This document shows positions 41,856-64,000 of a stretch of 64,000 nt of DNA, one piece after another (the stretch's first letter is position 1; the number at the start of each line of letters is the position of its first letter). Where the stretch lies: the NCBI RefSeq assembly GCF_009914755.1, contig NC_060927.1; one strand, written 5' to 3'. The position numbers were made by a program, and so were the translations under genes. Source of the DNA: the human T2T-CHM13v2.0 reference genome, Homo sapiens. Below the pieces are notes generated by a model. The model did no database searches, was not told the DNA's origin, and saw only the letters and a list, made by a program, of their open reading frames with translations.

Positions 41856-44800
41856 TTCTTCTATAATTAAAAAAAAAAGGCGTATGTCTTCTCCCTTTCT
41901 ATCAGGGCATTCCTTGCTGTTTTAGCAAAGGAATAAAGAGGAAAGTGTCTTTTATTGACCATGGAGTACAGGGGATACATGGAGATAGACATCTCTTCGG
42001 TAAACCAAAAAGGAAGTAGGAGGAATTTTAAATAAGTATCATGAAAAATCCACATAAAGTCTAATAATATACACACAAAAAATACTTATGGCCCTATGGT
42101 AGGTGGGAAAAAAAGATAAAATACTTGGTTTCAAGATGTAAAACTATGCAGAAACCTTTTTTTGAAATGAATATATATTTTAAATTATGGAATAATTTTG
42201 ACACATATATCTCTATATCAAAAAGTGTTTTCACAGATAGCTTCTTTTTAATTTTTAGGGCTGGTTATTTGTGTTTTCCTAAGAGGTCTCAATGTGCTCA
42301 GAAATGTCACTTTTTAGATTCTACAAAAAGAGTGTTTGGAACCTGGGGAATCAAAATACAGGTTCCAACGTGAGATATTAAATAGCACATCAGAATGCAT
42401 TTTCACAGATAGCTTGTTTCTTGTTTTTGGGGCTGGATATTTGTTTTTTTCCTAATAGGCCCCAATTGGCTTAGTAATGACACTTCATAGAATCTACAAA
42501 AAGAGTGTTTGGAACCTGGTGAATTAAAACACAGGTTCCAATCTGACAAAGCATTTTCACAGAGAGCTTGTTTCTAGTATTTAGGACTGGATATTCATTT
42601 TTTTCTTTGTAGGCTTCAATGGGTTCAGAAATGTCACTTCATAGATTCTACAAAAAGCAGGTTTGGGACCTGGTGAATGAAAACACAAGCTCCATTCTGT
42701 GATATAAAACAGCACATCACAAGCCGTTTTCACAGATAGCTTGTTTCTAGTTTTTAGGGCTGGACATTCGTTTGTTCCTATAAAGCCTCCATGGGCTCAG
42801 AAATGTCACTTCGTAGATTCCACAAAAAGAGTGTTTGGAACCTGTTCAATCAAAGTGTAACCTCCATTCTGTGATATAAAACAGCAAATCACAAAGAGTT
42901 TTCACTGATAGCTTGTTTCCAGTTTTTAGGGCTGGATATTTTTTTTTTCCTAATAGGCCTCAATGGGCTCAGGAATGTCACTTCGTAGATTCTACAAAGG
43001 GATGGAACATGTTGATTCAAAACACGTGTTCCATTCTGTAATATGAAACAGCAAATCACAAAGCATATTCACAGATAGTTTGTATCTGTTTCTTAGACCT
43101 GGATATTCATTTTTTCCCATAAGGCCTCAATGGGCTCAGAAATGTCACTTCACAGATTCTACAAAAAGTGTTCGGAATCTGGTGAATCAAAAACAGGTTT
43201 CATTCTGTGATAGGAAACAGCACATCCAAAAGCATTTTCACAGATAGTTTGTTTCTTGTTTTTAGGGCTGGATATTCATTTTTTCCTAATAGGTCCCATT
43301 CGGCTCAGTAATGTCACTTGGAAGAATCTACAAAAAGAATGTTTGCAACCTGATGAATTTAAACACAGGTTCCAATCTGGGATATGGAACAGCACATCAT
43401 AAAGCATATTTACATATAGCTTGTTTCTAGCTATTAGGGCTGGATATTCATTTTTTCCTAATTGTCCTCAATGGGTTTAGAAATGTCACTTTGTAGATTT
43501 TACAAAAAAATTGTTCGGAACCTGGTGAATCAAAATATAGCTTCCAATCTGGTAATATGAAACAGCAAATTGCAAAGCATTTTCACAGATTGTTTGTGTC
43601 TTGTTTTTAGGGCTGAATATTAGCTTTTTCCTAACAGGCTGCAATCGGCTCAGTAATGTCACTTCATAGAATTTGCAAAAAGAGTTTTTAGTACATGGTG
43701 AATTTAAACACAGGTTCCAATCTTAGATGTGGAACAGCACATCACAAAACATATTCACAGATAGCTTGTTTCTAATTGTTAGGGCTGAATACTCATTTTT
43801 CCCTATGGGCCTCAATGAACTCAGAAATTTCACTTTGTAGATTCTGCTAAAAGAGTGTTTGGAACCGATCTATCAAAACCGATCTATTTTGTGATATGAA
43901 ACAGCACATCACAAAGCGTTTTCACAGATTGCTTTTTTCTAGTTTTTAGGGCTCGATATTTGTATGTTCCCCTGAAGACTCAATGGGTATAAAAATGTCC
44001 CTTCAGGGATTCAAAATCAGTGCTTCAAACCTACTGAATCAAAACCTAGGTTACATTCTGTAATATAAAACAGCACATCACAAAGCACTTTCACAGATAG
44101 CTTGTTTCTAGGGCTGTATATTTGTTTTTTTTTAACAGGCCTCAATGGGGCTCAGAAATATAATTTTGTAGATTCTACAAAAAGAGTGTTTGAAACGTGG
44201 TGAATCAAAATGTAGGTTCCATTCAGTGACATAAAACAGCACATCTCAAAGTGTTTTCACTGACAGCTTGTTTCTAGTTTTTAGGGCTGGATATTCTTAT
44301 GTTCTTATAAGGCCTCAATGGGCTCAGAAATGTCACTTCATAGATTCTATAAAAAGGAAGTGTGGAACATGGTGAATCAAAATACAACATCCATTCTGTG
44401 ATATGAAACAGCACATCATGAAGTGTTTTCACAGAGAGCTTGTTTCTGGTTTTTAGGGCTGGATATTCATTTTTCCTAATAGGCCTCAATGGGCTAAGAA
44501 ATGCCATTTCATATATTCTACAAAAAGAGTGTTTGGAACCTGGTGATTCAAAACACAGGTTCCATTCTGTGATAAGAACAACACATCACAAACCTTTTTC
44601 ACAGATAGCTTGATTCTACTCTTTAGGGCTGGACATTTGCATGTTCCTATAAGACCTCAATGGGCTCAGAGAGGTCACTTCATAGACTCTACAAAAAGAG
44701 TTTTTGGAACCTGGTGAATCAAGATACAGTTTTCCTACTGTGATATGAAACAGAAAATCAAAAAGCATTTTCAGATAGTTTTGTTCTTGTTTTTAGGGCT

Positions 44801-47204
44801 GGATATTTCTTCTTTCCTAATAGGTCTCTGTCAGCTCAAAAATGTCATTTATTAGATTCTGCAAAAAAAGTGGGATCTGGTGAATGAAAACACAGGTTTC
44901 ATTTGTGATATGGAGCAACACATCACAAAGCATTTTCACAGACAGCTTTTTTCTAGTTTTTAGTACTGGATATTTGTTTGTGTAAAGCCTAAATGTGCTC
45001 AGAAATGTCACTTCTTAGATTCCACAAAAAGAGTGTTTGGAACATGGTGAATCAAAACGCATGTTTCATTCTGTGATATGAAATAGCAAATCCAAAAGTG
45101 TTTTCACTGGTAGCTTGCTTCTGGCTTTTAGGATTTTTTGTTTTTTCCTAATAGGCCTCAGTGGGTTCAGAAACATCACTTTGTAGATTCCACCAAAAGA
45201 GTGTTTAGACCCTGGTGACTTAAAACACAGATTCCAATCTGAGATATGGAATAGCACATGACAAAGTGTTTTCACAGAGAGCTTGTTTCTAGTTTTTAGG
45301 ACTCGATATTCATTTTTTCTTTGTAGGCTTGAATGGGCTCAGAAATGTCACTTCATGGAGTCTACAAAAAGCAGGTTTGGAACCTGGTGAATCAAAACAC
45401 ATGTTCTATTCTGTAATATGAAATAGCAAATCACAAAGCATTTTCCCAGATAGCTTGTATCTACTTCTTAGGGCTTAATAAGGACTCAATGGGCTCAGAA
45501 ATGTCACTTGGTAGATTCTACAAAAAGAGTGTTTGGAATCTGGTGAATCAAAACACAGGTTCCATTCTGTAATAGGAAACAGCACATCAGGAAGCATTTT
45601 CACTGATAGCTTGTTTCCACTTTTTAGGACTGGATATTTGTTTTTTCTTAATAGGCCTCAATGGGTTTGGAAATGTCACTCTATCAATTCTACAATAAGA
45701 GTGTTTGGAATCTGGTGAATAAAAACACAGGTTCCATTCTGTGATACTAAGGAGCACATCAGAAAGTGGTTTCACAAATAGCTTGTTTCTTGTTTTTAGG
45801 GCTGGATATTAGTTGTTTCCTAATAGGCCCCAATTGGCTCAGTAATAGCACTTCATAGACTGCAAAAAGAATGTTTGGAACCTGGTGAATTTAAACACAG
45901 GTTTCAATCTTAGATGTGGAACAGCACACCACAAAACATATTCACAGAGAGCTTGTTTCTAGTTATTAGGGCTGGATATTCATTTTTCCTAATAGGACTC
46001 AATGGACTCAGAAATGTCACTTTGTAGATTCTACAAAAGAGTGTTTGGAACCTGGTGAATCAAAACACAGCTTCCATTCTGTGATATGAGACAGGACCTC
46101 ACAAATCATTTTCTCTGCTAGCTTGTTTATGGCTTTTAGGGCTCGATAATCATACGTTCCTGTAAGGCCTCAATGAGCTTAAGAATGTCACTTCATAGAT
46201 TTATCAAAAAGAGTGCACAAACCTGGTAAATTGAAACATAAATTCCATTCTTTGATATTAAACAGCACATCACAAAGCGTTTTGACAGATAGATTGGTTC
46301 TAGTTTTCAGGGCTGGTTATTTCACTGTTCCTATAGAACCTCAATGTGCTCAGAAATGTCACTTTGTAGGTTCTACATAAGGAGTGTTTGGAACTCGACG
46401 AATTGAAAAACAGGTTCCATCTGTGATATGAAACAGCACATCACAACTTATTTTCTTGCCAGCTCTGAGAATGAAAAACAAGCTAGGTGAGAAAACAATC
46501 AGAGCTGGATATTCATTGCTTTTTAATAGGCCTCAAAGAGCTCAGAAATATTACTTTGTAGATTCTACAAAAAAAGTGTGTGGAACCTGGTGAATCAAAA
46601 CAGATGCTCCCTTCAGTGATACAAAACAGCACATCACAAAGTGTTTTCACAGATAGCTTGTTTCTAATTTTTAGGGCTGGATATTCACATGTTCTTTTAA
46701 GGTCTCAATGGGCTTAGAAATGTCACTTCAGAGATTCTTCAAACAGAGTGCTTCAAATCTGGTGAATCAAAACACAGTTTCCATTCAGTAATATAAAACA
46801 GCACATCACAAAAGATTTTCACAGTTAGCTGGTTTCTAGTTTTTAGGACTGGATATTCAATTTTTTCTTTATAGGCCTCAATGGGCTCTGAAATATCACT
46901 TAGTATATTCTACAAAAAGTGAGTTTGGAACCTGGTGAATCAAAACACAGGTTCAACTTTGTGATATAAAACAGCACATTGCAAAGCATTTTCACAGATA
47001 GTTTGTTTCTACTTTTTAGGGCTGAGTATTCACTTTTTCCTATCTAGCCTCAATAAGCTCAGTAATGTTACTTTAGAGATTCTGCAAAAAGCATGTTTGG
47101 AACCTGATGAATCCAAACACAGGTTCCATTCTTTGATATAAATAAGCACATCACAAAGCTTTTTCACAGGTAGCTTGTTTCTAGTTCTTAGGTTGTATAT
47201 TCAT

Positions 47205-47280
47205 ATTATTTTATGTTATTTATTTTTTTATTATACTTTAAGTTCTAGGGTACATGTGCACAACATGCAGGTTTGTTACA
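47205..47280 (-). mobile_element. Very short young L1PA 3' end inside the satellite
   Basis: TTATTATACTTTAAGTTCTAGGGTACATGTGCACAACATGCAGGTTTGTTACA is the reverse complement of the L1PA 3' terminus. Confidence 0.88.
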
Positions 47281-47744
47281 GGCCTTAATGAGATGAAAAA
47301 TGTCACTTCGTAAATTCTACAAAAAGAGCGTTTGGAACTTGGTGAACCAAAACACAGGTTCTATTCTGCAATATGAAACAGCAAATCACAAAGTGTTTTC
47401 ACTGATAGCTTTTTTCTAGTTTTTAGGACTGGATATATATATTTTTAATAGGCCTCAATGGGCTCAGAAATATCACTTTGTATATTCTACAAGAAGAGTG
47501 TTTGTAACCAGGTGTGGTGAATCAAAACACAGGTTCCATTCTGTAATATTGAAAAGCACATCACAAAGCATTTTCACAGATAGCTTGTTTCTACTTTTTA
47601 GGGCTGGATATTCATTTGTTCCTAATAGGTCTCAATTGGCTCAGAAATGTCACTTTGTACATTCCACAAAAAGAGTGTTTGGGACCTGGTGAATCAAAAC
47701 ACAGTTTCCATTCTGTTATAATAGAAAGTGCATCACAAAGGATT

Positions 47745-56216
<8,472 letters not shown>

Positions 56217-56540
56217 CTAGCTTGGATATTAGTATTTTCTTAAATAGGCCTAGAATTCTCTGAAATGTCATTTTTCAGTTTCTACAAAACATGACTTTGG
56301 ATTCTTTGTAATGAAAACACAAGTTCCATTCAGTGATATGAAACACCACATCACAAAGTTTTCTTAAAGATTTCCTGTTTTTAATTTTGATGGCTAGATA
56401 TTTGTATGTTCCTATATTGGCTCGTTGGGCTCAGAAATGTCCTTTCTTAGATTCTATGAAAAGTGTGTTTGGAACCTTTTGAATCAAAATACAGGGCTAT
56501 TTAGTGATATAAAACAGCATATTTCACAGCTGTTTCACAG

Positions 56541-56965
56541 AAACAGGGAAACAGGGAAATAGGGAAAGGATTCCCTGTTCAATAAATTGGGAAAGGACCT
56601 CCTATTCAATAAATTGTGCCAGGGTAGTGGCTTGCGGTACACAGAGGATTGAAATTGCACCCCTTCCTTACACCATGCACAAAAATCAACTCAAGATGGA
56701 TTAAATACCTAAATGCAAAACCTAACACTAAAAAAACACTGGTAGATAACCCAGGAAATACCATTTTGGACATAGAAACTGGCAAAGATCTCATCATGAA
56801 AATGCCAAAAGCAATTGCAACAAAGGCAAAAATTGACAAATGGGACCTAATTAAAGAGATTCTGCACAGCAAAAGAAACTATAATTTTTCAATGGTCTAA
56901 TACCCAGAATTTACAAGGAACTTAAACAAATGGACAAGAAGAAAACAAACAAACAAAATACAAAT
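56541..56965 (+). mobile_element. L1 ORF2 fragment capping the satellite
   Basis: ORF 56649-56900 ([21 protein letters not shown]...[16 protein letters not shown]) is L1 ORF2 C-terminal sequence. Confidence 0.88.
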
Positions 56966-57700
56966 GTTCCTAAATACAAAAATAAAGACAAACAAAACAA
57001 TCTATAGACTCAGTGAAGATTTTGAAATGTTTTGTTTATTATATGGTGAGGTTTTTCAGATCTTTTAGCCAAATCATGTGCCCTCATGTCTCCTACTCTT
57101 TTTGTTTCTGGCATAAAACTTTTTGATTTGAGCCAGAACAGTGAAGATGTCAACACACATCAATCTGATGATAATTGGAGGTGAGGGAAGTTCACAGTCC
57201 ATCATGAAAAACTCTTTTAGATAAGAAGGGAAGACCATATACATAGTTATGTAAAAAAAATCCTTCATGAGGATTCATATACGCAAAAGGGTAAGGGGAA
57301 AGCTTTACTTTGTACAAATGTAGATAGATTAAGTAACAATACACTAATACTTTGTAAAAGTGTGCTATTTACAAACAATGTTAGTGAACACAGTCTGCTA
57401 AGGTTTCATTATCATATATTGTTATGCACAGCTAAATCCTTCAACTATGTGAATGTTAGGACTTTTCACAAAAGCCTGCCTAATTCAAAGGAGCCTTTTC
57501 AAGTCCATTTACAACAAATTTAAAATCATATTTTCCCTGAACAAGTGCTTACCTGATATGACTCTGTTTTCCTTGTTTTTTTTTTAAATGAAGAAATATT
57601 CTGTTTTGCAAATTGGACCCCAGGCTGAAAATTGGCACCTTAAATGTCTGCATTTGGGCTTTGGGGAAAGTGCCACTCAGATAGGTATCTCAGGACATGA

Positions 57701-57958
<258 letters not shown>

Positions 57959-58102
57959 TGAGTAGCTGAGACTACAGGCGTGCACCACTACATCTGGTTA
58001 ATTTTTGTATTTTTAGTAGAGATGGGGTTTCACCATGTTGGCCAGGATGGTCTTGATCTCCTGACCTCATGATCTGTCTGCCTTGGCCTCCCAAAGTGCT
58101 GG

Positions 58103-59552
58103 TGAGAGGTGACAGCATGCTGGCAGCCCTTGCTGGCTCTTGGCACCTCCTCGGCCTCGCTGGCGCCCACTCTGGCCGCACTCGAGGAGCCCCTTGGCCC
58201 GCCACTGCACTGTGGGCGCCCCTCTCTGGGCTGGCCGAGGCCAGAGCCAGCTCCCTCTGCTTTTGGGTAGGTGCGGAGGGAGAGGCGCAGGCCGGAACCA
58301 GGGCTGCGCATGGCGCTCCTGGGCCAGCGCGAGTTCTGAGTGGGCGTGGGCTGGGCCAGCCCGCACTTGGAGCGGCTGGCTGGCACCGCCGGCCCCAGGC
58401 AGTGACGGGCTTAGCACCCGGGCCAGCAGCTGCAGAGGGTGCGTGGGGTCCCCCAGCAGTGCTGGCCTGCCGGCTCTGCGCTGGAATTCTTGCCGGGCTC
58501 AGCTGCCTCCCCGCGGGGCAGGGCTCAGGACCTGCAGCCCGCCATGCCTGAGCCTCCCCACCACCGTGGGCTCCTGCATGGCCCCGGCTTCCCCACTGCC
58601 GTGGGCTCCTGCATGGCCCAAGCCTCCCCACTGCCATGGGCTCCTGCATGGCCCGAGCCTCCCCAATGGGCGCCACCCCCTGCTCTGCGGCGCCGGGTCC
58701 CATCAACTGCCAGGCTGAGGAGTGCCGGCACACAGTGTGGGACTGGTGGGTAGCTCTGCCTACCGCCGCTGTGGGGGATCCACTAGGTGAAGCCAGCTGG
58801 CCTCCTGAGTCTAGTGGGGACTTGGAAAACCTTTAAGTCTAGCTAACGGATTGTAGAGACACCAATCAGCACTCTCTTGTCTAGCTCAAGGTTTGTGAAT
58901 GCACCAATCAGCACTCTGTATCTAGCTAATCTGGTGGTGACTTAGAAAACCTTTATGTCTAGCTAAAGGATTGTAAATACACCAATCAGCACTCTGTGTC
59001 TAGCTCAAGGTTTGTAAATACACCAATCAGTGCTCTGTGTCTAGCTAATCTAGCAGGGACTTGGAGAACTTTGTGTCTAGCTCAGGGATTGTAAACACAC
59101 CAATCAGCACCCTGTCAAAATGGACCAATCAGCTCTCTGTAAAACAGACCAATCAGCTCTCTGAAAAATGGGCCAATCAGCAGGATGTGGGTGGGGTCAG
59201 ATAAGGCAATAAAAGCAGGCTGCCCGAGCCAGCAGCAGCAACCAAGTGGGGGTCCCTTTCTGCGGTGTGGTAAGTTTGTTTTTTCGCTCTTTGCAAGGAC
59301 TCTTGCTGCTGCTTACTGTTTGGGTCCGCACTGCCTTTATGAGCTGTAACAGTAATCACAAAGGTCTGCAGCTTCACTCCTGAGCCAGTGAGACCAGCAA
59401 CCCATCACAAGGAAGAAACTCCAAACATGTCCAAATATCAGAAGGAACAAACTCCTGACACACTGCTTTTAAGAACTGTAACACTCACCGCCAGGGTCTG
59501 AGGCTTCATTCTTGAAGTCAGTGAGACCAAGAACCCACCAATTCTGGACACA
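58103..59552 (+). mobile_element. Full-length ERV9 solo LTR (LTR12C-like), 1450 bp
   Basis: Starts TGAGAGGTGACAGC and ends CAATTCTGGACACA. 4-bp TSD CTGG at 58099-58102 and 59553-59556. GC-rich U3 and tandem CCAATCAG repeats. Confidence 0.95.
58855..59245 (+). promoter_or_regulatory. LTR12 enhancer/promoter: eight CCAAT (NF-Y) boxes, GATA site, AATAAAA TATA-equivalent
   Basis: CCAATCAG near 58862, 58904, 58982, 59023, 59100, 59126, 59149 and 59173. GATAA at 59200 and AATAAAA at 59208-59214. This is the established ERV9 LTR promoter architecture. Confidence 0.75.
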
Positions 59553-60957
59553 CTGGGTTTACAGATGTGAGCCTCGGCGCTTGGCCACCATGCCTTTTTT
59601 AGGGTGGCCTATTTCATATGTGTACACACTTCTCCGTTTTGAAATGAGACGTTCTTACACCCAAACAGATCCTGAAATAAAGCTTCAGGTTTTCTCAGAT
59701 GATGTATGTGTTTTCAGTGTGATCAATAACTGATCATTTCTTCTCTTTTTTCCTTTACCTAATTTAAATATGATTTGTCTGCTGGGACTCTGGATACATT
59801 GTGAAAAGTTTTCGATTATTTTCAGCCCCGGCAATCGGTTTTATTCTCTGTGTTTAGTTCACAAAACAGAGTCTCAGAAGGGCAATGTCTGTAATTTGCC
59901 ACTGGGTGACTGTGCCTAGCACAAAACCTAGCGTGTGGGAAGCTGCATAAATGCCATTTAGACACATAAATAAAAACCGTTTACCTATGACACATTTTAT
60001 TCTTTCTAGGTATAAAAGGCGGGAAACTGGTAATTTGAAATCAAAACAGTACTTTTTAGTTTGAAATCTGTGTGATGACCACCAACATGTTAGCATATAT
60101 CCAATCAATATTTCATTTTGAGTTTTCCATTAATGTGAGAACTCCATGGGAATTAGCATTTATTAGTAGTTCTAAATCTTCTACAATATAAGGGGAGTGG
60201 AAATTTTAACGAGCCAATGCTGTGGCATTTACTTGGGAATAAACTCTCTCTTCCCTCCTTGTGTCTCCTGTGTCCTGCCCCCTGCTGAATTCAGCTGCAG
60301 CATAGACCTCCTATCTTCCAGACCACCAAAGCTTACACAGTCCCAGAGAAGAGACAGGTGTGGGGAGTCATAACTCACAAAGGCTCCCTTGGACTCTAGA
60401 CCACTAAGAAGGTTAGAATTTCAGGAGTAGCCGTGGAAGATGATGAGGGCTTAGAGTCTCAAGAACTACAAATAAATACCTAAAAATAAAATTTGTCAGT
60501 CCAGACTTGGAGAGGTCTAGTATGTGGCTATGAGAAAGATGAAAAGCAACATAGAGACTGGGTAAAAGTGGAAAGGCCCTCCATCACACCATTTGTTGGC
60601 GTCATAAAGTATACTGTGTTTCCACCCACCACAATGGAAACCAGGAGGTAACTGATGTCAGTTGTCCCTTCCTAGGAGGCAATGAAAAGTTCAGTGAATT
60701 AGTTTATCAGAGGAAGACTTTTCATGTTGCCGTAAGTATTATCATTCTAGTCTGAATAGACACATATGGGCCAGTGTAACTTAAGTGCATACAGAATATG
60801 AGCTACTCAGAGGACTTTCAGATGCAGAGGTATAGCAGTGGTTCTCAGCCCTGGTTAAGATCACCCGGGAGCTTTTTACTAGGCACGAGTGTTGCAGTCA
60901 CCCTATATATTCCAACATAATTGTTCTGGGATAGAGACCTGGCATTGGTCTCATGAA

Positions 60958-61062
60958 GATGTGTATGTGTATGTATACACAATATACCTGTATATGTATT
61001 CATATATATGCAATACATATGTATATGTAATTATATATATGTACAGTACATAGGTGTATGTG
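60958..61062. repeat. Degenerate (TA/TG)n low-complexity tract next to a MER5-like fragment
   Basis: Alternating purine-pyrimidine ATGTGTATGT.. tract. Confidence 0.75.
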
Positions 61063-61799
61063 TTCATATTTTTATAAAACATATTATTATCTCATTTCTT
61101 TATATGGTTGTAGCTCTTTCTGTCTTACTAGTATATGTATACATAAATACGTGTATAAAGAGACAACGATGACTACTTATTTGGATGATGACTCCAAACC
61201 ATTTGTGCTTAGATTTTTAATGAGAATTGTTGTTTTAACATTCTACATAAATTTGGTATTTGATAACTTAGCTACTAGATTGCTTAGGTTACAAGGTACA
61301 ATTTACAAAGACTTTCTTCATCTCAGTTTCCATAATGGTAAACAGCAATTTTAAAACTCTCTCAGAAGTATAGCTATTTTGTCTATAATCTAATGACATG
61401 TGTGTTTGCTATGCTATCCAGATTATTAGCTAAATACTCTTTATTTGGACTTTTGGCATAAAGTCAGACACAAAAATATGTGAAAAATTTTAAATCCACA
61501 TGATACCAGTGACTTAATTACTAACTTTAAGTAGACAAAATTGGCAAAAACATTTACAACTCATAATAGGAGCATCACAACCCCTTATAAGATGCCTTTT
61601 AACATACCAACAAGTTTATATTCATAATCTCACTTATTCCTAATTAAATCTTTTGAGGTCTGCCTTATTTTGATTTTACTATTGCAGCAACTCAGGCTAT
61701 GAGAAGCTGTTGGTGACCTGGAGTAACAGGCTGGCAGAGTCAGGACTGGAGTTGAGGGTCTGCTCCAAGCTCAGTACTGGCTCCTTGCATCACCTGTAG

Positions 61800-62146
<347 letters not shown>

Positions 62147-63100
62147 TGTCATGTCTCTAACTGTAGAAGCTCAAGCAAGGCTGTGGCCTCTGCCTCTGGC
62201 TGTGCTCTAAAGAACTGTTTCTTTCTGTTTGTTGTAAGCCATGAACCAAGTTGTTGTGAACATAAAAACCAAATGTGGAGGCCTTTCTCCTCTGCAAGGA
62301 AATAGTACACCTGATATTACTTAAACAAGCAAGTGATAAGGCTTACCTGACATGCTGAAAAATGACATGTTGGGGATTTTACTACAAGAAACAAAATACA
62401 TAATTGGCAGAAATGTGGCATTTGCTAAAAAAAATGGCTTGAATTCTTTCCATCTGCTACACTGATTTTCTTCACACATCACCAAAATCATAAAGCAAAT
62501 CCAGCTCTGAGCAGTTGAAATATAGAAACAAGGGTGACAAGAGAGCAGGCCGAAGGAGCTCAGTGACTCAGAGATTAGCCACTGCCATCTCACTGCTGGG
62601 ACCCTCGGCATCATGGAATGTGGCATGATGGCCATCCTGTGGCAGTTTCTAAGCCACCCAAAGAGGTAATGCCGCCTGTCAACATTCAGAGCATTACCTC
62701 AAGGAGGCTGCACCATGGCTGAGCCTAAAATAAAACACTGCTGTTTGCGACCCTCTGTTGTTGCTTGCTGGGAGACTCAGAGTAAATTTGCATCCAAAGC
62801 CTGCAACAAGCTTGTTTCCTTAATATAATATATACCACATGTTTTCATATCATAATTTTAGTCTTTATCATAAAATAATTTTTAAAAAATATTCTATCTT
62901 CAAAGAAAATTGTAAAGGACCTGTGGGGGAACCTAAAATTTGGGACTTTGAATGTCATTAGAACTTAGACAGATGTACCCTTTGAGCAGATTATGCAATG
63001 ATAACTTACATTTAATTATTTTATGACTGCTTCTATTTGAACAAACATATATCATTTTCTGCTCATGTTTTGAATTTTTAATGCAAAGAACCTGATCTAA

Positions 63101-63439
<339 letters not shown>

Positions 63440-64000
63440 TAACATCTATAAATGTTGTTGGTTTACAAAATAGATAACTGATGGGAAATACATAACCTTA
63501 TAGGAAAGTAATTTGGGGGCAGTGTTAATTATAGATGCGTTGGATAAGAAGATCTGTTAGGTAGTAAAGCCCTTTAAAAAGGATAAATTGGTTAAAAGTC
63601 CCTATCATGGGTTTTTGGGGACTCTTCAGTACTCCTCTGTGGATTCACTCTGGGGCCCACTAGCATTTATAATGCTGGTAGCAGGGAATAAAGCTCAGGA
63701 TATCCACTGTCTTCAAACTCTGTAGAGTCTTCAAGATTGTGTATCTATCTGTGAGTCACAAAGTGTTTGATAAGCTGAGTGTGCAGGACTGATTAGAAGA
63801 GGGACTCTTTGTATTGAGGGTGTTCACAGTATCATATTTCTTAGTAGAAATAGAATCTGAGAAGTCGTTGAGTTCGGGAAAACATGTATGAATCAATAAA
63901 ACCATGAGGATAAACAGGCACAACAAGAAGGTAGAAACTGTTGAATGTTTATATTTTTGTAGTCACAGAAATGAAATGAGCCAAAAACATAGAATTTAAA

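What the first reader, a model, noticed from the sequence alone, without database searches (positions are those of the whole stretch)
42215..56540. Isolated 14-kb alphoid island in Alu-rich, MIR/L2-bearing euchromatin-like DNA: candidate dead-centromere relic
Seen: both flanks are ordinary interspersed-repeat and unique sequence. The left flank holds old elements (MIR, L2, MER2/5/30/53, L1M). The array itself contains only AluS/AluY-like and L1PA inserts, each at a unique site, and I saw no CENP-B box. Inference: the array is younger than the mammalian-wide repeats and stopped homogenising before or during AluS activity. It is either the outermost layer of a pericentromere or an ectopic scar of a repositioned centromere.
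Basis: partly seen in the sequence, partly recalled or inferred. Interest (0 to 1): 0.75.

Follow-up and report, generated by a model that had tools for sequence, protein, structure and literature searches.

The report
Layered fossil centromere fragment at 3q21
A 14-kb patch of very old centromere-type repeat DNA lies far out on the long arm of human chromosome 3, stacked in three distinct layers, and is likely the eroded remnant of a centromere that our monkey-like ancestors abandoned over 40 million years ago, a kind of relic that is already described.

Summary
The array is real: 77 head-to-tail alpha-satellite monomer hits (modal unit 172 bp, 11.9 kb) at 42228-56529, on one strand, with no CENP-B or pJalpha site.

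It has three ordered layers:
- a locus-specific monomeric block;
- five monomers of a family shared with small arrays on chr7 and chr22;
- a decayed trimer.

All lie outside the clade of grey and pericentromeric monomers (100/96 support). No close copy was found (long queries 70-74%, short ones up to 81%), so it is not a recent duplication. All six full-length Alus inside are S/Y type, and deletions cut through Alus, so the array shrank after it died.

The right flank is a mosaic: an old L1 piece, an AUTS2-like 3'UTR copy and a chr4 duplicate (73-88%).

Best reading (0.55): an in-place remnant of a stem-anthropoid centromere. Main rival (0.33): a pericentromeric fragment moved here long ago.

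The class is known: SF13-18 relics, described as far from centromeres and presumably at defunct ones. The locus is probably already catalogued, but I could not read the table. Primate orthologues were not testable.

The parts
42228..48834 (+). Left layer: about 36 monomer hits of a locus-specific, quasi-monomeric ancient alpha family with short local duplications (pairs up to 92%)
   Evidence: 32 of 32 near-full monomers have their nearest neighbour inside this layer
46459..46495 (-). Small inverted piece of a monomer
47205..47282 (-). Short L1PA-type 3' end with poly(T) (subfamily recalled)
   Evidence: sequence
47768..48051 (-). AluS insert with target-site duplication
48157..48429 (-). AluS insert
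48828..48872 (+). Alu fragment cut at both ends exactly at the left/middle layer boundary; inferred deletion junction
   Evidence: sequence
48878..49687 (+). Middle layer: 5 monomer hits of the family that forms the chr7:65.60 and chr22:22.55 Mb arrays
49690..56529 (+). Right layer: decayed Z-X-Y trimer with 11 X monomers; X is about 67% identical to Y/Z
   Evidence: 6 of 10 X-to-X gaps are 3 monomers, permutation p=0.002 (split monomers merged by hand)
50667..50947 (-). AluS insert
51120..51402 (-). AluS insert with target-site duplication
52052..52324 (+). AluS insert
52562..52657 (-). Internally deleted Alu joining one monomer head to an X-monomer tail; inferred deletion
   Evidence: sequence
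55936..56216 (-). AluY/Sc-type insert with target-site duplication, splitting an X monomer
56545..56960 (+). L1 ORF2 fragment at the right border: 27-bp stutter at its 5' junction, 3' end missing; of a different, probably older subfamily than L1PA7
56995..59733 (+). Old copy of the 3'UTR that follows a long ORF at chr7:72.015 Mb (AUTS2, name recalled), split by an Alu that carries a solo LTR (about 57852-59575; LTR12-type recalled); no poly(A) tail
59732..64000 (.). Old duplicate of chr4:123.73 Mb: first 0.8 kb inverted (73%), the rest direct (76-79%)

Best explanation
This 14-kb block is three ordered layers of ancient alpha satellite without CENP-B boxes, likely the eroded in-place remnant of a centromere of an early anthropoid ancestor. 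Shown: three sequence families lie in series in one orientation and in the order of their relatedness; the left and right layers are homogenised among themselves; the right layer keeps a trimer period; AluS/Y copies inserted at single sites, and deletions later cut through them. Inferred: successive families expanded at an active centromere, the centromere was lost or moved before about 40-45 million years ago, homogenisation stopped, and deletions trimmed the array. It would have no kinetochore role today.
For: Layer order follows the tree. Left is 91-92% (consensus) to both grey and chr7/22; the middle layer mixes with chr7/22; the right layer forms its own clade. All 63 window monomers lie outside the grey+pericentromeric clade (73 rows, 100/96; also with an HMM-free alignment). 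Nearest neighbours lie within the same layer for 32 of 32 left and 27 of 27 right monomers. Relatives of the middle and X families include solitary repeats dated by orthology to the Simiformes ancestor: sat_496, sat_685, sat_828 in PMC7719264 (matched to my hits by chromosome, length and offset). The NWM/OWM/ape ancestor already had SF11 centromeres (PMC13041921). The border L1 is 83-86% to its six best relatives but 76% to the copy beside the chr5 array that PMC7719264 calls L1PA7. Human cen3 is evolutionarily new and its ancestral position is uncertain (PMC2646277). SF13-18 are described as such relics (bioRxiv 2021.07.12.452052).
Against: Layering shows pericentromeric origin, not that the centromere stood here. 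The right flank is a chain of pieces captured from elsewhere, and the left junction is abrupt. The tree has no outgroup, so layer polarity and 'older than grey' are not shown; the midpoint root falls in the left layer. Left, Y and Z monomers are LESS diverged from their consensus (0.12-0.15) than grey (0.17-0.18) or chr7/22 (0.19), p about 1e-4 or less, while X is not. That does not fit a simple older-is-more-diverged rule, and local AluS divergence is normal. Absence of AluJ in array plus right flank (0 of 9, against 9 of 35 on the left) is not significant (p=0.17). PMC7719264 dates the chr22 sister array only to Hominidae and the SACS cluster to Hominoidea.
Confidence: 0.55

Rival explanations
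1. A layered piece of an ancestral pericentromere elsewhere was copied or moved to 3q21 some 35-55 million years ago, by an ancient duplication, a capture at a chromosome break or a breakpoint, together with the L1/AUTS2/chr4 mosaic. No centromere ever stood here.
For: Mosaic right flank of similar age. 3q21 is a breakpoint hotspot (PMC1794428; PMC1756914). De novo alpha insertions occur (PMC8662618 abstract). The marmoset supplement warns that distant fragments may come from alpha-containing duplications.
Against: No donor copy and no shared non-repeat flank with 13 of 13 sister loci tested. The left family has no second array among the loci sampled. No target-site duplication is evident at the two ends. 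An old donor could simply have been lost.
Confidence: 0.33
2. A few orphan monomers inserted and were amplified locally into an arm satellite that never served as a centromere.
For: Low divergence and local duplications in the left layer; solitary alpha repeats of these families exist.
Against: It needs three separate families in phylogenetic order and one orientation, with the middle one mixing with arrays on two other chromosomes.
Confidence: 0.08
3. A recent segmental duplication from a present-day pericentromere, or the outer layer of the present cen3.
For: It lies about 30 kb from the OR7E pseudogene cluster (hub annotation).
Against: Best outside matches are 70-74% for long queries and at most 81% for two-monomer queries; both junctions are single-copy. 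The searches score only the top candidates.
Confidence: 0.03

Closest known systems
Ancient alpha satellite SF13-SF18 (Ia, La, Fa, Ea, Qa, Pa/Ta) of the T2T annotation
   Same: Small, far from the centromere, 172-bp, pre-A, outside the grey clade. The two-class right layer fits SF18, the only two-class family among them (inference).
   Different: The monomer classes could not be assigned (no HumAS-HMMER profiles), and Table S5 was not readable. Three ordered layers in 14 kb are not described in the passages I read.
Grey layer H4/Aa/SF12 arrays (Xp; chr 1, 3, 4, 5, 18; PMC2729386)
   Same: 172-bp, arm-located, dead, with retroelement inserts.
   Different: Fails the mixing test. The chr3 array that mixes with grey is the one at 81.0 Mb, not this one.
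2q21 relic centromere (ANKRD30BL cluster; PMC7719264)
   Same: Arm-located alpha remnant read as a dead centromere.
   Different: 2q21 carries SF2/SF5/M1 monomers and its history is documented; this one is far older and has no cytogenetic proof.
Dispersed euchromatic alpha repeats (PMC7719264)
   Same: Same families as sat_685, sat_496, sat_828, the SACS cluster and sat_652/653.
   Different: This array has about 70 monomers, is layered and periodic, and is not among the loci tabulated in that paper.

Membership tests
Alpha satellite | Tandem head-to-tail 171-172-bp unit | tested here: met
Alpha satellite | Homology to recognised alpha monomers | tested here: met
   Left layer 68-72% mean identity to Xp, chr16, chr17 and chr19 pericentromeric monomers, X type 58-60%; hits to loci listed as alpha repeats in PMC7719264. 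No live HOR was compared.
Live HOR centromere | CENP-B boxes and near-identical HOR copies | tested here: not met
   same-type monomers average 76-83%
Live HOR centromere | CENP-A binding, methylation dip | not testable with these tools
   no chromatin data
Ancient pre-A alpha (SF9 and older) | 172-bp monomer, neither pJalpha nor CENP-B site | tested here: met
   definition
Grey layer SF12 (Aa/H4) | Mixes with grey monomers on trees | tested here: not met
   0 of 63 window monomers inside the grey+pericentromeric clade; grey identity of the comparators inferred from chromosome list
SF13-SF18 | Small array far from the centromere | tested here: met
   chr3:128.38 Mb, 11.9 kb of alpha; cen3 position recalled
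SF13-SF18 | Assigned to Ia/La/Fa/Ea/Qa/Pa/Ta by HumAS-HMMER | not testable with these tools
   profiles not available
Dead-centromere relic in situ | Ordered layers of distinct families | tested here: met
Dead-centromere relic in situ | Symmetry about a lost core, or known polarity | tested here: inconclusive
   one-sided, tree unrooted
Dead-centromere relic in situ | Orthologous array and ancestral centromere at this position in other primates | not testable with these tools
   no primate genomes held
Recent segmental duplication | Copy above 90% over more than 1 kb | tested here: not met
   only top candidates scored

The most novel reading that the evidence does not exclude
3q21.2 marks the unresolved ancestral anthropoid centromere of chromosome 3, and it was a chromosome-specific, trimer-bearing centromere that kept homogenising archaic families after others had switched to grey. 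This 14-kb block would then be the one place that records the order of the oldest alpha families, with the L1/AUTS2/chr4 mosaic as its fossil pericentromeric duplication zone or the scar of the break that killed it.
Probability: 0.2. Interest if true: 0.65.

Novelty: new member of a known kind. Interest (0 to 1): 0.36.

Why it matters
The ancestral position of the chromosome 3 centromere is stated to be uncertain (PMC2646277), and the order of the oldest alpha families is hard to fix because they survive as scattered scraps. Three such families in physical series give a direct ordering test and a candidate position that T2T monkey genomes can check at once. The decayed trimer would show multi-monomer repeats in stem anthropoids. 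No present-day function is indicated.

Tried and rejected
Comparators
- No live-HOR comparator was obtained: the chr3:93.0 Mb stretch held no alpha (0 hits), and no further genome stretches were available. Sequence beyond window position 64000 and the chr4 donor were not read.
- Membership of the grey layer was rejected. A recent duplication was rejected.

Tests that gave nothing
- A Pfam scan of the chr7 ORF found 0 families, so the name AUTS2 rests on recall of position and C-terminus.
- The AluJ depletion test was not significant.
- Dating by within-array divergence is unreliable: pericentromeric arrays thought to be younger are more diverged (0.20-0.23) than grey.
- Y and Z1/Z2 subtypes are only weakly separable.

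Literature
- Ten searches and passage searches in the papers opened gave no mention of this locus.
- Unseen and likely to bear on novelty: Altemose Table S5 (published version not held), Shepelev 2009 Table S2/Text S1, Ventura 2004, and a paper on 3p12/3q21 duplications.
- Supplement searches for SF12-SF18 terms in PMC13041921, PMC12058530 and PMC11168930 gave no SF hits (one scanned file unsearched in each of the last two).

Full report
OBSERVATION. Tandem Repeats Finder reports 171-173-bp arrays from 42228 to 55865. A profile built from 31 window monomers finds 77 hits at 42228-56529, all on +, and one 37-bp inverted scrap. They total 11,890 bases with a modal unit of 172 bp (24 of 61 intervals). 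No CENP-B or pJalpha 17-mer is present at up to 3 mismatches. This fits the 'pre-A, 172-bp, ancient' definition in the supplement of PMC9549924. The locus is chr3:128.38 Mb by the hub annotation, about 32 Mb from the active cen3 arrays (their position is recalled).

ANATOMY. Clustering and leave-one-out profile scoring split the array into three blocks. Left (42228-48834) is quasi-monomeric, 79% mean identity, with local pairs up to 92%. Middle (48878-49687) has 5 hits, all scoring best with the family of the chr7:65.60 and chr22:22.55 Mb arrays. Right (49690-56529) is a decayed Z-X-Y repeat. X is about 67% identical to Y/Z and recurs every third monomer in 6 of 10 gaps (permutation p=0.002; split monomers merged by hand). 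An Alu fragment cut on both sides sits at the left/middle boundary, and another deleted Alu joins mismatched monomer halves at 52562-52657. I infer that deletions trimmed the array after Alu insertion. All 6 full-length Alus in the array are S/Y type, 7.9% non-CpG divergence against 8.4% in the left flank. J types are 9 of 35 on the left and 0 of 9 in array plus right flank (p=0.17).

RELATIVES. Own-genome searches score only their top candidates (6-40 of up to 33,778), so they give lower bounds. The best outside matches were 70-74% for a 5-kb left query, 66-72% over long stretches for a 2-kb right query with short orphans at 79%, and at most 80-81% for two-monomer queries. I fetched 20 regions and extracted 660 near-full monomers. 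In FastTree all 63 window monomers group with 41 chr7, 32 chr22, 2 orphan and 1 Xp monomer, apart from the other 521 (support 0.991). IQ-TREE on 154 rows (all 63 window monomers, 3 orphans, 8 random from each of 11 arrays; bootstrap not fully settled) gives grey+pericentromeric 100/96, middle+right+chr7/22 99/93, and X plus the chr3:102.66 orphan 100/99; left is a grade between them. An HMM-free alignment of 220 monomers gives the same identity pattern. PMC2729386 lists grey arrays on chr 1, 3, 4, 5 and 18 (Results read). The chr3 array that mixes with them is the one at 81.0 Mb.

AGE. Solitary relatives match loci in PMC7719264 by chromosome, length and offset (Table 1 and supplement part 2). 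sat_685 and sat_828 (hits of the X query) and sat_496 (middle family) are dated there to the Simiformes ancestor. The same table dates the chr22 sister array to Hominidae and the SACS cluster to Hominoidea, which is against a uniformly old placement. The sat_496 and sat_83 orphans are 7-9% from their nearest family consensus, about 40-45 million years at the 0.2% per million years rate given. The marmoset paper puts SF11 centromeres in the NWM/OWM/ape ancestor (section 14). The border L1 is 83-86% to its six best relatives and 76% to the copy beside the chr5 array labelled L1PA7. Against a simple age order, left, Y and Z are less diverged from their consensus (0.12-0.15) than grey (0.17-0.18) or chr7/22 (0.19), while X (0.19) is not. 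Pericentromeric arrays are more diverged still (0.20-0.23), so divergence may track time spent near a centromere (PMC11062924 reports 1.1-4.1-fold higher rates there, passages). The tree is unrooted, so polarity is open.

FLANKS. Four left probes found only the window itself and interspersed repeats, and MIR-like motifs occur only there. The right side is a mosaic. First comes an L1 ORF2 piece with a 27-bp stutter at its junction with alpha and no 3' end. Next is a copy of a 3'UTR from chr7:72.015 Mb (682 of 831 identical, then 130 of 147; AUTS2 by recall, Pfam blank), split by an Alu that holds a solo LTR and lacking poly(A). A duplicate of chr4:123.73 Mb follows directly, the first 0.8 kb inverted, 73-79%. 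None of 13 sister loci shares non-repeat flank with the window. The hub lists pseudogenes and the OR7E cluster beyond.

MECHANISM. Shown: ordered families, one orientation, local homogeneity, trimer period, single-site inserts, deletions, no close copy. Inferred: layered expansion at an active centromere, death before about 40-45 million years ago, then erosion. In place at 3q21 (0.55) is favoured by the layer order, by locus-specific families, and by human cen3 being evolutionarily new with an uncertain ancestral site (PMC2646277, passages). Ancient relocation (0.33) is favoured by the mosaic flank, by 3q21 being a breakpoint hotspot (passages), by documented alpha insertions (abstract), and by the caution in the marmoset supplement (passages). 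Local amplification of orphans (0.08) and recent duplication (0.03) are weak.

KNOWN OR NEW. [quoted passage not shown] This array works like, and probably is, one of them; class assignment was not testable. The positional numbering in PMC7719264 leaves 17 alpha records between chr3:99.96 and 179.5 Mb, which suggests that RepeatMasker has long annotated it (inference). Ten searches found no text on the locus, but the key supplements were unseen. Also consulted by passages without bearing on the locus: PMC9549924, PMC4496801, PMC3966626, bioRxiv 2024.04.07.588379 (macaque centromeres flanked by SF8-13).

VERDICT. A real, ancient, layered alpha relic of a known kind, probably already catalogued. 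The three-family series, the trimer and the mosaic flank are its added value. Interest 0.36.

Noticed in passing
window 56545-64000: L1 piece, AUTS2-like 3'UTR copy and partly inverted chr4:123.73 Mb duplicate are joined end to end without poly(A); this may be templated capture at a break or an old pericentromeric mosaic.
   Followed up: partly
window 57852-59575: A solo LTR (LTR12-type, recalled) inserted into an Alu that itself sits in the 3'UTR copy; the RefSeq enhancer 57785-58459 lies over it.
   Followed up: no
G000:C13:22628880-22631827: The SACS-intron alpha cluster holds several X-like monomers in a row; it may be a second remnant of the right-layer family.
   Followed up: no
G000:C7:65600068-65607461 and G000:C22:22547523-22553368: Two small arm arrays form one well-mixed family (97% consensus identity) distinct from grey.
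   Followed up: partly
G000:C3:81000939-81022929: A second ancient array on chromosome 3, of grey type, over 20 kb, also far from cen3; a competing candidate for an ancestral centromere site.
   Followed up: partly
G000:C19:30244202-30253966: Ancient-type monomers repeat at about 4.6-kb steps with identical scores, suggesting a recent low-copy amplification of dead alpha.
   Followed up: no
G000:C6:57216791-57217087 and C6:61451019-61451314: The PRIM2-type alpha orphan occurs twice around cen6, in line with the cen6 duplication mentioned.
   Followed up: no
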